64,000 nt of DNA from the human T2T-CHM13v2.0 reference genome, Homo sapiens, in the NCBI RefSeq assembly GCF_009914755.1, contig NC_060941.1. One strand, 5' to 3'. Below the pieces are notes generated by a model. That model was not told the DNA's origin. It saw only the letters and a list, made by a program, of their open reading frames with translations, and ran no database searches. Of this stretch, positions 44,390 to 53,418 are shown one piece after another (positions within the stretch are counted from its first letter, which is position 1; each line of letters opens with the position of its first letter). Both the position numbers and the translations under genes were made by a program.

Positions 44390-44900
44390 CTCTGTCGCCC
44401 GGGCCGCTCCGGACTACATTTCCCAGGAGCCTCGGCGCGCACTTCCGCTTCTGGCCCCTTTCTCTGGAGGAGCTCCGCGCGTGGCGAGTCTGTGTCCTCC
44501 CTGTCCCCCAGAGCAGAGAACCCTCTCTGTGTCTGGACCGGGGAGGAGCAGACGCTGGACAGGGTGTGTGTGTTCAGCAGTGGATTGTCAGACTTGGGGT
44601 CCCGGCTGCTCCCTTTTGGGTCTCTCCCCGGGCCCGCTGATCTGACTGTAATTCCTTCTGCTGGAGCTAGGGTTCGGCCACCTTGACGCGCCCCCTCTGC
44701 CCCCGGAGCGTGTCTTTGGGTTTTGTGTGTGTGGGAGTGGGGTGTATGTGTGTTTCTTATCCGAGACACCTCCGGGTCGTTTGCTTGGAAACCGGCTGAG
44801 GGCCCGCACAGCCTGGAGCATTTGGTTGGAAAGTGAGGCAGGTAGCGCCCAAGGCTCCTGTACCAGGGCCAGGTTAGGCACCAACGCGTCCCTTATGTCT
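44390..44900 (+). promoter_or_regulatory. CpG-island promoter of the plus-strand unit (fossil KRAB-ZNF; probably TRIM16L 5' end)
   Basis: CpG-rich; SBS motif GACTACATTTCCCAGGAGC 44412-44430, followed by ETS-type CACTTCCG near 44440. The TRIM16L link is from recall; no TRIM coding exon is recognisable in the window. Confidence 0.7.
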
Positions 44901-45684
44901 CTGCAGCCTGCAGTGTGGTGGAACCGTTTTATAGACTGACAGTGTGAACGTGGGAGGGGATGGATATCAGAGACCCGTTTATCCACATTTTCAGAGAGTG
45001 GTATTGCTCCGATGTGAGTGTAGGCAGGTTACTCTCTGTGTCTCGTGTTCTTTACCTGTAATTTGAGGTTTGTTGTACCTACTTTTAAGTGGTGGTTGTG
45101 AGGATTAAATGGAATTTTGACATGCAACAGTTGACACAGGGCCAGACACCAAGTAAGGGATCAATCAGTTGTTGCTTTTATTAATAGTAGGCATCCATCT
45201 GCCCACTTGTACGTAAGAAGGAAACACCCAAGAATGAAAAGTAGCTTGTTGTAGGTCACCCAGCCAACTAGCACATAGGGGAAATTAGAATCCAGGCACT
45301 CCCAGCAGGGCACTTTCCACCACCCTGCACTTTTGTATTCATCAGGCACAATATCCTTACTGTTGTCTGTAACTGTCTATGTTCCCAGTGTCTGACTCTG
45401 CAGGGCCCTGGTGGTATAAAGGTACTGAGACTTGCCTGTGTTTAGGGCTTCCTGAAGATTAAATGGCTGCTGAAGTTCTTGAGTTTAGCTTTAGCTCAAA
45501 AGATACTGCGTCAGACTCTGCGTTCTGAGTAGAGTCTCAGACAATGAAAAAAGAAATACAATGAAAAAGGGGAAAACTTCAATCCAGAATCTCTTGCCAC
45601 AGTTTTTGGCAGAATGCTGGCAATTCCCAGGAAGATATGTGGAGAACGGAAAGGTTGCTACACCCAAATAGTGGCGCAAAGGCT

Positions 45685-45724
45685 ATGATTATGGAGGATT
45701 GGACCTGCAAACTCCAGAACAGAG
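45685..45724 (+). pseudogene. Fossil KRAB-ZNF ATG exon segment, (MI)MEDWTCKLQNR
   Basis: ATGATTATGGAG parallels ZNF286B GTGATCATGGAG; phase-1 donor AGAG|GTAAGA. Confidence 0.55.
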
Positions 45725-47807
45725 GTAAGAAATAGAAATAAAGGGTCCTGCCATTAGCCGAGAATCTGCAGTATGCACACACAACCTCATTTTAGTTTTT
45801 CTTTACAGCAACCTTGTAAAATGTGTGTGGGCAGCACAGAGACCTTGGGCAAGTTAACAGTTTCCTCATCTGTAAATACTGATTTATGGAAAGCACCTGG
45901 TGTATGGTGAGTGTGCGAAGAATGGTAGTGATTTTACTAATATTCCCTTTTAATTTGAAACCCTGAAAAAACAAGATACCTTACTTCCGTACTCTTTCCG
46001 TTATACCACCTGCCTTTCTGAAGGATGAGGGGGGATAAGTCAGACTCCTTGGAGGAGGAGAAAGAAATAGGTATGGAGAGGCTGATGATTTGATTTGGCA
46101 TTATAGCACATGGGAGAGCCTTAGTCCCTTGAACCTTCTATGAGCTCAGGGCTAGAGCTGGGGCCTGCGTCCCCAGGGTCCATGGCCCTGCTGCTCATTT
46201 CTGGCAGAATTAGAGACTGCTCCTTGGCTCTCTTTCAGTTTTCTCTTAAAAAGTGCTTTCTCTTAAGGAGATACAAAGGGATGCCCCAGATTAGAAGGGA
46301 CTTCCATAGTCTATCTCTAGTCTGTTTGACTTTCCTATAATATCCTGCCCTCAGGCCCTCTGATTTCTGGAAGTCCTGGAACTTAGGAGTTCCTAACTCT
46401 ACCTTAGCCCCCACTGACTGTCAGTGTCGAGTACAGGGAGGGGACAGGCATCTTGTGGGGAAGTTGGGATTTGGGAGTATGACCAAACATATTGATCATA
46501 CCTTTTTTTCCTCGTAAAACAAAGTATAGAAAGAAAGCACCATAAAGTCTTGGTTAATGTTGATATGCAGAAAATATTGAGAATAATAATTAACTGATGA
46601 TTAAATGACCTTTCCTGAGTGCTTATTCTGTACCAGGTACTGGTTTGGGCCGTTTATGTGCATTAATGCACATTGTAGCAACGTAGGTACCATTATTAAT
46701 CTCTTTTGTAAAATTAGGAAACTGAAGCCCAGAAGAAACTTGGCTATGGTTACACAGTGCCAGGATGTAAAGGCAGTAGGCAGGCAGACTCCAGAGCCAG
46801 AGTTCCAATGACAAAGGATTACAGGAGGCATGAATTCTACAAAATTGTGAAACCCTGTACTTGGTAATAACTGAGGCCTGAAAGAACTACTTCTTCCCCC
46901 AAACAAATCCACAAGGAGGTTTAAGTACTGCTTTTTGGAGATGGGTGGAGAGAGGATTGAAGAAATAATAAACTGTAAAATATTAGGAAAATATAGAATG
47001 ATATGTAGAATAAGATAAATAGCATGTAACCCTACTACCTAGAGATAAGCGCAAAGAAATGCTCAAAGGTAATAGGATCAGCAGTTCTCTCCCTACAAGT
47101 AAAAAAATCAAAATGGAGAAGTAAATTATGAGCAGAAGGTTGCTTGTTGGGCATAGAATCAGACCAAGGGAATTTGGGGCTCATTCATTAATTCATTCAC
47201 AATACTTAGGGACTGCTGTCTGCCAAGTACACCATGCTCAGTGCTTAGGATGCAGTGGTGAATGATACGACACATACAATTTAGTGGAGCGTGTGTGGTG
47301 TTAACAGGCCTGAGATGGCCACAGACTCACCGTGGGCCTGGAATACTCACGATGGGGTGGCTAAAGGTGTCTGTGACCATGACTGCTGGGGTGGGCACTG
47401 CTGTCTTTTGCTGCTGTGACTCCCTTTTTCTTGTTCTACAAAATTGGTCACTTTCTCCATTTGTGAATAAAGGAGTTGAGCCTGGAGGTCTTTAAGCACC
47501 TCTCCAACTGTAACATTGCACTTCTTGTTTTGTTTTAGGGTTTTTTGGTCCCAGGGAACCTCGTTTTCAGAGCAGTGGCTCACGCAGATCCTGAGCCCAG
47601 TTAATGGTCATACCTTTCCCTAAGTTTATGTTCATTCTATCCTCTGAGATTATCTTTGAAGTCTCATTACATAGATGTCTGTAAAATCCTTCAAGCTATG
47701 GGCAGCCAAGGTCAGAGGCACATTTTCTCATAAGTGGCTGTTTCTAAATTCATAGGTTTGAGATACATAAAGATAAACCAGGTTCCTTTATGTCAATTTC
47801 CTTCCAG

Positions 47808-47896
47808 TTCTGCCCTCTGAGGACCCTGCCCTTTCCCAAAAGGGGTATCTTAAGAAGGAAAATATGGCTGCTCTTTGCCGGACAGCAGAGTCCCAG
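47808..47896 (+). pseudogene. Fossil KRAB-ZNF 89-nt exon, (V)LPSEDPALSQKGYLKKENMAALCRTAESQ
   Basis: Same length, phases and ends (ag|TTCTG ... TCCCAG|GTGAGT) as ZNF286B 27649-27561, with an alignable peptide. Confidence 0.8.
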
Positions 47897-48810
47897 GTGA
47901 GTTGGGGATTCTCCTCTCTTCTCGGAAATTTTATTTTAATTGAGTTGGGGATTTTCCTCTCTTCTCAGAAATCTTATTTTAATTCCTGAAGCAAATTTTT
48001 TTCTCTTAGCATGAAGCTTGTCAACCACATTAGCCACAGCAGTTTGAAAGGAAAGGATCAAGCAGGTGGGATGGACTGCCAACGGGATGGTGTTTGAGTG
48101 TTCCTCAGTTGTATGACAGTAGCAGTGAAGGTCAGGAGGCTTGGTAGCCTCGCCCATCAGTTGGCAGTGTGGAGAAAGGATGGTGGGGGCAGGATGGGAA
48201 TGAGGCCTCTTTAGCAGATAATTGAGGAGCGTGACTCCTAGAACATGGTTGGGTAAGAATCAAGCTTCTTTTTGTTCACTTGAGACATTTGGCGTAGATA
48301 TGCAAAGGCACGTGAGGCATTTCTTGCTTGCATCTGCTTAGAATATTTTGGGGAGAAAAGATGTACACAAATCTGTGTGGCACAAACCAGCAGATTTAGT
48401 ATTATTAAATAGGGCCTTATTATTAAGGGCCCTTATTATTAAGGGCCTACTCAATAATAAAGTGTCTTAGGGAAAATGCTGTATAGACTTGGAGGAGCAG
48501 GAGCAAATGTGTCTGGCTGAGAGAGATTTAGGAAGGTTTTATTCATTCAACTAGCATTTTAAAGTCCTTTTAAGCAGCTCCTAGGCTAATGAAAGTAGTG
48601 AGATTTGATGTGGGCCCTGAAGGCTAAGTTGAAAGATTTATAGAAAGTTAGTGACATAAATGACTTAGAATCGAAGCAAGATACTGATTCCTCTGGCACA
48701 GGAAAAAAGTCAGTACATTGAAATCACGGAGGTGTTGTTCCACAAAAACTTAAAGGCTTCTTATACTCAAAGTTCTTTCCTAGATATAATTCTCAAGCTT
48801 GGCTTATTTC

Positions 48811-52360: not shown

Positions 52361-52920
52361 AAAATTCTCAGGTTTCTGGTCTGGATGTGTAGGTGAATGG
52401 AAGTTCTCTTCCCTGAGATGGAAAACACAGGAGAAGTAGCAAATTTAGGGAGTGGAAGATGAGTTCAGTTTCTCTTAAGTTGTTTGAAGTGTCTATAATA
52501 AGTCTAAACCAGTGGTTCTTAACCAGGGGCAAGTTTGCCCCCCAGGGGACATTTGGCAATGTCTGAAGTGTGCTATGGGTATCTCGTGAGTGGAGTCCAG
52601 GAATGCTGCTAAACATCCTACAATGCACAGGACGGGGCCCCACACAAAGACTTGTCTGTCTAAAACGTCAACAGTGCTGCAGTTGAGAAAACCTGCTCTA
52701 AGTGGTAATGTCTGGAGGCTAGATGAATATAAGGATGACATGCCAAATGTATCTTAGTAAAGGAAAGAGATCTTAACTGGTGGTACAGATTTGGGAGTTG
52801 CCTGAGAATGGATGAAATTGAAGCCATGGGAGTGGATAATATCACCCAAAGAGCACAAAAAGAGTTACAAGAGAGCCTAGAACTCTAACGAACACAAACA
52901 TTCAAGTATCTGCAAAAAAA

Positions 52921-53061
52921 ATGTATATATATATGTATAGTATATAATATATATATTTTTATATTATATATGCAAATATATATGTATATACACATGTATA
53001 TATACGTATGTGTATATACACATACGTATGTATATATACACATACGTATGTGTATATACAC
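52921..53061. repeat. Compound (TA)/(CA)/(TG) repeat containing perfect palindromes
   Basis: Alternating purine-pyrimidine tract; palindromes at 53002-53029 and 53033-53058. Confidence 0.9.
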
Positions 53062-53340
53062 AGGGCTTCTCTCCAGTGTGGATCCTCTGATGTTGGGTAA
53101 CATGGGCGCTTCTACTGAAGGCTTTCCCACACTCCTGATAATCAAATGGTTTCTTTCCAGTATGAACCCTCTGATGCTGGATAAGAGATGAACTCTGGCT
53201 GAAGGCTTTCCCACAGTCTTTACAGGTGTAGGGTTTCTCTCCAGTGTAGACTTTTGTATGTTTTGTAAGAGTGGAGCTCTGGCTGAAGGCTTCACCACAT
53301 TCTTTACACTTGTAGGGTTTTTCTCCGGTATGAGTTCTGT
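53062..53340 (-). pseudogene. Three degenerate C2H2 fingers (ZNF29P-like fragment), inverted relative to the KRAB exons
   Basis: Reads [92 protein letters not shown], in a different frame from ORF 52885..53343. Confidence 0.9.
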
Positions 53341-53345
53341 CACAT

Positions 53346-53418
53346 AAATGTGGCAGAGCTTTCGTGTAGTTCAGCCCTCATTAGACACCAGAGACTTCAC
53401 AGTGGAGAATCTCCCTGA
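53346..53418 (+). pseudogene. Terminal C2H2 finger remnant, [23 protein letters not shown]
   Basis: Plus-strand translation with a 2-nt deletion after F; parallels the ZNF286 last finger [23 protein letters not shown]. Confidence 0.8.

What the first reader, a model, noticed from the sequence alone, without database searches (positions are those of the whole stretch)
44390..53418. A fossil ZNF286-like KRAB-ZNF gene, divergent from ZNF286B, with intact splice sites
Seen: SBS/ETS CpG promoter (44.4 kb); ATG exon ending in phase 1 (45724); an 89-nt exon equal in size and phase to ZNF286B exon 3 (LPSEDPALSQKGYLKKENMAALCRTAESQ vs [29 protein letters not shown]); KRAB-A and KRAB-B exons; a last finger resembling that of ZNF286. 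Coding is destroyed, but the GT/AG sites are canonical. Inference: an ancient inverted duplicate whose promoter and exons were co-opted as the 5' leader of a downstream gene (TRIM16L/TRIM16 by recall). This would be a second case of ZNF promoter capture at this locus.
Basis: partly seen in the sequence, partly recalled or inferred. Interest (0 to 1): 0.7.

Follow-up and report, generated by a model that had tools for sequence, protein, structure and literature searches.

The report
Dead zinc-finger gene now heads TRIM16
The annotated start of human TRIM16L, and the matching stretch at TRIM16, is the wreck of a zinc-finger gene that is whole in galago and sea otter; most of its finger exon is gone, three fingers are flipped, and its promoter and first exons were likely taken over by TRIM16, where they are predicted to give one isoform a new front end.

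Summary
Real, and richer than first read. The six exons are annotated TRIM16L exons with GT/AG ends; a 98% copy sits at TRIM16. Five belong to a KRAB zinc-finger gene found whole in sea otter (669 aa) and galago (715 aa). They match otter residues 539-631 in register at 86% and abut the plus-strand last finger, so the finger exon suffered a deletion plus inversion; the linker and seven fingers were not found in the human genome. A tamarin model is colinear but decayed. Gibbon and baboon keep a KRAB-only frame; both human copies share a frameshift and a stop. Coding is not all destroyed: the ATG exon and 89-nt exon join TRIM16's coiled-coil exon in frame, giving an open 434-aa B-box-less frame in both copies, matching database isoforms in catarrhines. 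These exons diverge at about the neutral rate. ZNF286 is a plausible old sister, not a shown parent. The finger remnant is probably the catalogued ZNF29P. Synteny, translation and the ancestral TRIM16 promoter were not testable. New case of a known process.

The parts
44251..44750 (+). CpG-island promoter of the fossil gene, now the annotated start of TRIM16L; SBS-type motif 44413-44425, ETS-like motif 44440-44447
   Evidence: hub table (TRIM16L starts 44447; RefSeq silencer 44368-44427, enhancer 44615-45172)
44447..44563 (+). non-coding exon 1
   Evidence: hub table; GT donor
45603..45724 (+). ATG exon (ATGs at 45637, 45685, 45691), ends in phase 1, frame open; homologous to the otter N-terminus. 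The 45637 ATG is ACG in the TRIM16 copy
45809..45906 (+). 98-nt annotated exon not seen in any relative's protein; breaks the frame when included; looks like an exonised MIR repeat (recalled resemblance, not tested)
   Evidence: hub table
47808..47896 (+). 89-nt pre-KRAB coding exon, phase 1 to 0, open, identical in both human copies
51071..51217 (+). KRAB-A exon with a 1-nt deletion near 51130, shared by both human copies
51515..51616 (+). KRAB-B exon with a TAG at 51547-51549, shared by both human copies (Q in gibbon, baboon, galago, otter)
52921..53059 (.). AT/CA microsatellite at the left junction of the rearrangement
53060..53338 (-). inverted piece of the finger exon: three C2H2 fingers (two degenerate), equal to otter fingers 8-10 of 11; probably the paralogous copy of ZNF29P
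53339..53418 (+). last finger with a small frameshifting deletion, and the stop (TGA 53416-53418), in the original orientation
63227..63552 (.). repeat (Alu-like) holding the junction of a ~17.3-kb deletion that removed the TRIM16 B-box exon from the TRIM16L copy
   Evidence: hub repeat mask

Best explanation
This is the remnant of a KRAB zinc-finger gene that is whole in sea otter and galago, lost most of its finger exon with three fingers left inverted, and whose CpG promoter and exons were likely captured by the downstream TRIM16 once its own last exon was gone. Shown: exon identity with TRIM16L, the inversion, the missing linker and seven fingers, the shared human KRAB lesions, and an open 434-aa frame from the first two coding exons into TRIM16's coiled-coil and PRY/SPRY exons. 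Inferred order: gene alive in the boreoeutherian ancestor; decay in simians; deletion plus inversion on the catarrhine stem removed the last exon's acceptor, so transcripts would run on and splice into TRIM16; KRAB frame lost after the gibbon split; then the segmental duplication made TRIM16L, which lost its B-box exon by a deletion between repeats. The KRAB exons now likely act only as a uORF-rich leader, and the 43-aa N-terminal piece is most likely a neutral passenger.
For: Exons equal the annotated TRIM16L exons (hub table); second copy 98% at C17:15580998-15590699 minus. Minus-strand piece equals otter 539-631 at 80 of 93, against 59-66% for other full-length registers, and 76 of 93 to galago; otter against galago over the same span is 75 of 93. 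The plus-strand piece continues at otter residue ~642. No human finger array exceeded 71% to the otter protein (66 of 3037 candidates scored). The galago linker found only paralogue-level hits: those spanning the linker 27-37%, best 70.5 bits (150 of 2488 candidates scored). Seven N-terminal sequences group with SH-aLRT 99 in an order that fits the species tree (quick tree). Tamarin model P0159 reads linker, fingers and the frameshifted end in one direction. Unnamed record P0250, with baboon-type KRAB residues, runs from KRAB-B into the antisense reading of the fingers, 36 of 42 identical to window 53063-53188, so the inversion is not human-specific. KRAB-only frames in gibbon P0124 and baboon cluster P0126 (8 members). 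Chimeric isoforms: human P0122, gorilla P0123, siamang P0125 (9 members), orangutan P0197 (11), Rhinopithecus P0214 (32). 434-aa frame open in both human copies, 421 and 416 of 434 identical to P0197. The fossil promoter is the only CpG-rich 500-bp window in the fetched TRIM16-copy stretch 15.53-15.60 Mb.
Against: Synteny of the otter and galago genes with ZNF286 and TRIM16 could not be seen; orthology rests on sequence. Whether TRIM16 used its own promoter while the zinc-finger gene was alive was not testable, so 'capture after death' is inferred. All non-human proteins are gene models, and P0159 is a hypothetical model that skips exons. A motif match for an NRF2-type element lies ~200 nt before the coiled-coil exon, so an internal start may carry part of the expression. 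The one listed TRIM16L transcript includes the 98-nt and KRAB exons and has 14 upstream ATGs, all ending in stops, so it cannot make the 434-aa product.
Confidence: 0.78

Rival explanations
1. Shared promoter from the start: read-through from the zinc-finger promoter into TRIM16 existed while the gene was alive, and gene death only removed one of two products. This is inheritance of an old read-through rather than capture.
For: The two genes lie head to tail. A KRAB-bearing read-through-type model of another pair turned up in the search (P0206), so such joins are common. No non-catarrhine transcript data were available.
Against: All named chimeric isoforms found are catarrhine or labelled with catarrhine representatives; none carried the otter-type or galago-type N-terminus among the 120 of 131 hits listed. 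That search is word-based and weak for absence.
Confidence: 0.15
2. The finger remnant is a separate 5'-inverted retrocopy (L1 twin priming) that landed behind the KRAB exons; its layout (inverted upstream piece, forward 3' piece, 5' part missing) is what twin priming leaves.
For: The geometry fits: the 3' end of the inverted piece continues into the forward piece in the intact protein.
Against: KRAB exons and fingers belong to one protein in otter and galago. The tamarin model has the same fingers and the same downstream sequence in place (84% over 37 codons). No shared word of 9 nt or more between the left flank (52860-52935) and 4.6 kb downstream, and only one A-run of 10, at 54897. No parent gene in the human genome: best other DNA match 76% over the full piece.
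Confidence: 0.04
3. The remaining frames are under selection: a KRAB-only repressor adaptor in monkeys and gibbons, and a functional B-box-less TRIM16 isoform in all catarrhines.
For: Frames are open in gibbon and in an 8-member baboon cluster; a rough neutral model gives a 1-17% chance that 126 codons plus splice sites survive, depending on an assumed path of 0.035-0.09 substitutions per site. The 89-nt exon is identical in both human copies. The ATG at 45691 has a strong Kozak context.
Against: Gibbon against baboon is 110 of 126 identical; the leader is 36 of 41 and 37 of 43, while the TRIM16 body is 379 and 372 of 391. 12-14% is what the neutral model expects (13.5% at 0.065). A protein database shows only lineages where a frame survived. 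Humans lost the KRAB frame.
Confidence: 0.2

Closest known systems
ZNF29P (ZNF29, KOX26), 17p12
   Same: A table in PMC13108476 (passage read) places ZNF29P wholly inside a 57-kb interval that starts in TRIM16 and ends in ZNF286A. The only clear finger-coding sequence I found there is the copy of this remnant at C17:15581574-15581953. ZNF29/KOX26 was mapped to 17p13-p12 in 1991 (title seen in a reference list).
   Different: The identification is my inference; I saw no coordinates for ZNF29P itself. I found no paper that links it to the TRIM16 leader exons, to an inversion or to intact orthologues.
ZNF286A / ZNF286B
   Same: Neighbour, head to head; same exon plan (phase-1 ATG exon, 89-nt exon, KRAB-A, KRAB-B, last exon); last finger with Cys at position -1 and the stop at the same place. 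That finger motif was in 1 of 245 fetched finger proteins, the otter orthologue.
   Different: Other fingers differ in sequence and order; linker only 31%; ZNF286A lacks 12 nt of KRAB-A that the fossil keeps; sister relation unresolved.
FOXO3B using the ZNF286B promoter and exons
   Same: A downstream frame is reached from a KRAB-ZNF promoter through an ATG exon and an 89-nt exon in frame (hub table: coding 28435-28471, 27561-27649). A review says FOXO3B encodes a protein (PMC10611805, passages read).
   Different: FOXO3B sits inside a young duplicate of a living gene (that it is a retrocopy is recalled). Here a whole old gene died and the recipient is a conserved multi-exon neighbour. The primary paper (Santo and Paik 2018) was not held.
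TRIM16 (EBBP; B1-B2-CC-PRY-SPRY) and TRIM16L
   Same: The recipient. Domain order from PMC2533329 (table passage).
   Different: The chimeric isoform has coiled coil, PRY and SPRY but no B-box match and starts with 43-59 residues from the dead gene.

Membership tests
KRAB-C2H2 zinc-finger gene (ancestral state) | KRAB-A box | tested here: met
   PF01352 above cut-off in the window piece (58 bits) and in otter, galago, gibbon, baboon, tamarin
KRAB-C2H2 zinc-finger gene (ancestral state) | tandem C2H2 array in one 3' exon, same strand as KRAB | tested here: met
   11 tandem fingers in otter P0133, 12 plus one upstream in galago P0131
Functional KRAB-C2H2 gene in human | open frame from KRAB through the finger array | tested here: not met
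   frameshift, stop, missing linker, inverted fingers
Unitary-type pseudogene (lost gene with no working human copy) | no intact paralogue of the same gene in the genome | tested here: met
   only two broken copies found; best other array 71% or less. Searches score only top candidates
Unitary-type pseudogene (lost gene with no working human copy) | intact orthologue at the syntenic position in outgroups | not testable with these tools
   intact proteins found; no genomic context is given for them
Direct duplicate of ZNF286 | sister grouping with ZNF286 to the exclusion of other KRAB-ZNFs | tested here: inconclusive
   both fall in an open node (SH-aLRT 83, 34 rows) of a quick tree with 118 columns; human ZNF287 and ZNF624 KRAB exons were not included
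Promoter and exon capture by a neighbouring gene | donor exons spliced to the recipient | tested here: met
   RefSeq NR_172637.1 in the hub table; database isoforms P0122, P0125, P0197, P0214 join donor and recipient exons
Promoter and exon capture by a neighbouring gene | recipient used a different promoter before the event | not testable with these tools
   needs transcript starts in outgroups
5'-inverted processed pseudogene (twin priming) | target-site duplication, poly(A) tail, parent gene elsewhere | tested here: not met
   tamarin model colinear

The most novel reading that the evidence does not exclude
The death of a 90-million-year-old KRAB zinc-finger gene rewired TRIM16 in catarrhines: it moved TRIM16 onto a CpG-island promoter and created a translated, B-box-less TRIM16 isoform with a zinc-finger-gene N-terminus, which the 'pseudogene' TRIM16L can also still encode (434 or 450 aa). 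A KRAB-only protein would have survived as an intermediate in Old World monkeys and gibbons.
Probability: 0.25. Interest if true: 0.72.

Novelty: new member of a known kind. Interest (0 to 1): 0.5.

Why it matters
It gives a stepwise record of a mammalian transcription-factor gene dying in the primate line while its promoter and exons stay in use, with living outgroup copies to compare. It explains the long, ATG-rich leader of TRIM16/TRIM16L and the origin of a catalogued TRIM16 isoform that lacks B-boxes. It also shows that TRIM16L, filed as a pseudogene, keeps an open 434-aa frame. If the outgroup data agree, human TRIM16 expression depends on a promoter that other mammals use for a different gene, which matters when animal models of TRIM16 are read across to people. 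The process itself (exaptation of pseudogene promoters and exons) is known.

Tried and rejected
A protein search with the three fingers alone ranked long multi-finger proteins first (best identity 71% among 120 listed of 7652) and found no orthologue; the 89-nt exon and the gibbon KRAB-only protein as queries did. The ESM Atlas gave only generic KRAB-ZNF clusters. The careful tree did not finish; the quick tree used 99 of 142 extracted KRAB segments after removing near-copies, and the tamarin row fell outside the group on a long branch (2.36) because its model lacks the flanking exons. A first assembly of the TRIM16 body exons took a wrong acceptor and stopped at 210 aa; corrected. Rejected: retrocopy by twin priming; survival of the missing linker elsewhere in the human genome; the 89-nt exon as proof of ZNF286 parentage. 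Ten literature searches found nothing on the origin of the TRIM16 leader; ZNF29P occurs in 2 papers, one read (a gene list), one seen only as a listing. Three older papers were not held, most subscription journals are not searched, and supplements of KRAB-ZNF catalogues, which could list this loss, were not seen. No fold or complex job was run; neither would decide the question.
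Full report
1. Observation. All six annotated TRIM16L exons in 44447-51616 have GT donors, and the five internal ones AG acceptors. The SBS-type motif occurs twice in the window, at this promoter and at the ZNF286B promoter, against 0.06 expected. The 89-nt exon matches ZNF286A's at 54 of 89 positions; 0 of 20000 shuffles reached that. The KRAB box passes Pfam's cut-off. The whole 9.7-kb stretch has one other copy, 98% identical, at C17:15580998-15590699 on the minus strand, the 5' end of TRIM16.

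2. A six-frame scan found three more fingers on the minus strand, 53060-53338, directly against the plus-strand last finger. No other finger sequence lies between the KRAB-B exon and the end of the window.

3. The living gene. A search with the 89-nt exon passed 7 of 14 candidates, among them KRAB-only models from gibbon (P0124) and baboon (P0126, 8 members). A search with P0124 for longer proteins passed 131 of 361 candidates, 120 listed; it gave full-length KRAB-ZNFs from galago (P0131, 715 aa, 78% over the query) and sea otter (P0133, 669 aa, 71%), and a tamarin model (P0159). The human inverted piece equals otter residues 539-631 at 80 of 93, while other full-length registers give 59-66%. 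The plus-strand piece picks up the next finger and the end of the protein. So KRAB exons, inverted fingers and last finger are one gene. Seven N-terminal sequences group with SH-aLRT 99 (quick tree). No human array exceeded 71% to the otter protein (66 of 3037 candidates scored), and the galago linker found only paralogues (150 of 2488 scored). About 420 codons (otter 119-538) and the acceptor of the last exon are therefore missing. Only two full-length lineages turned up; this may reflect repeated loss in mammals or the weak word-based search.

4. Order of events (inferred; divergence order from general knowledge). The tamarin model reads linker, fingers and the frameshifted end in one direction, with degenerate fingers: decayed but not inverted. 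Unnamed record P0250 has baboon-type KRAB residues and continues into the antisense reading of the fingers, 36 of 42 identical to window 53063-53188: the inversion is shared with that lineage, which points to the catarrhine stem. Gibbon and baboon keep the KRAB frame; both human copies carry the same 1-nt deletion and the same TAG, so these came after the gibbon split and before the duplication, whose copies differ by about 2%. TRIM16L then lost ~17.3 kb (about 15,571,450 to 15,554,170 in TRIM16 coordinates), including the B-box exon, with the junction inside a repeat at 63227-63552.

5. How it works now. With the last exon's acceptor gone, transcripts from the CpG promoter would run on and splice to TRIM16 exons. 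This promoter is the only CpG-rich 500-bp window in the fetched TRIM16-copy stretch. Two outputs follow. Transcripts that include the 98-nt exon or the KRAB exons carry a leader with up to 14 upstream ATGs that all end in stops. Transcripts that join ATG exon, 89-nt exon and the coiled-coil exon are in frame: 434 aa, open in both human copies, with coiled coil, PRY and SPRY but no B-box match. Such isoforms are in the databases for human (partial), gorilla, orangutan, siamang and Rhinopithecus clusters. Whether they are translated was not tested, and the hub table shows only 1 of 9 TRIM16L transcripts, which is not this form.

6. Against a function for the leftover coding pieces. Gibbon and baboon KRAB-only proteins are 110 of 126 identical; the leader differs at 12-14% while the TRIM16 body differs at 3-5%. 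That is near the neutral expectation (with assumed rates). The same rough model gives 1-17% for the frame surviving by chance, but a protein database only shows survivors. I read the N-terminal piece as a probable passenger and the promoter as the part most likely to matter.

7. Relation to ZNF286. For: adjacency, exon plan, similar ATG-exon end (30 of 49 aligned columns), and a last finger with Cys at -1 found in 1 of 245 fetched finger proteins. Against or neutral: the 89-nt exon has counterparts in ZNF713, ZKSCAN1, ZFP28-type and marsupial proteins, and ZNF286A ranks first among non-orthologues for the otter query but seventh for the gibbon query; the linker ranks 37th overall and 6th among full-length alignments; ZNF286A lacks 12 nt of KRAB-A that the fossil has; the tree is open at this node. 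An old sister duplication before the otter-primate split is plausible (about 60%, my estimate) but not shown.

8. What is known. The exons are annotated; the isoforms are in databases. ZNF29P lies between TRIM16 and ZNF286A (PMC13108476, table passage), and the copy of this remnant is the only clear finger sequence there, so it is probably ZNF29P/KOX26 (1991 mapping paper seen only as a reference). FOXO3B is reported as protein-coding (PMC10611805, passages). PMC2533329, PMC3961182 and PMC5727304 (passages) add only gene lists and domain order. Ten searches found no account of the fossil origin of the TRIM16 leader, the inversion or the intact orthologues; subscription papers and catalogue supplements were not seen.

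9. Verdict. A real gene-loss and promoter-capture case, apparently undescribed as a whole, of a known kind. Best explanation 0.78; interest 0.5. Open: synteny, outgroup transcript starts, translation.

Noticed in passing
window 63227-63552; L016 and L018: TRIM16L lacks ~17.3 kb relative to TRIM16, including the B-box exon (C17 ~15557830-15557310) and a small exon near 15565100; the junction lies inside an Alu-like repeat, which suggests recombination between repeats.
   Followed up: partly
L021 ~4505 (window coordinate 68505, outside the window): A TGAGTCAGC element (NRF2/ARE-type by recall) on the minus strand ~200 nt before the TRIM16L coiled-coil exon; the only hit of my restricted patterns in 30 kb; could mark an internal inducible start.
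   Followed up: no
window 51070, 51082, 51091: Three in-frame AG acceptors before KRAB-A. Primate models use the first, the otter model the second; the third sits where ZNF286A's acceptor aligns. This looks like stepwise upstream drift of the acceptor.
   Followed up: partly
window 53060-53062: The inversion left a CAG just before the antisense finger sequence; model P0250 uses it as an acceptor, giving a 42-codon tail read from the antisense of zinc fingers. The same frame is open in the window (53063-53191).
   Followed up: partly
L013 ~2626-2740 (ZNF286A KRAB-A exon): ZNF286A's KRAB-A exon is 115 nt and lacks four codons in the middle of the box compared with the fossil gene and typical KRAB-A boxes.
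   Followed up: no
window 45637: An upstream in-frame ATG is present in the TRIM16L copy and in the baboon and Rhinopithecus proteins but is ACG in the TRIM16 copy, so TRIM16L could encode 450 aa against 434 aa for TRIM16.
   Followed up: partly
window 50581-50999: An alternative annotated TRIM16L exon begins at an AG inside an antisense Alu-like repeat and ends without a GT, so it is probably a terminal exon.
   Followed up: no
window 73252 region (L021/L022) against L019 15544497-15543254: The TRIM16 copy holds ~1.2 kb that TRIM16L lacks, GC-rich and repetitive in translation (SVA-like by recall).
   Followed up: no
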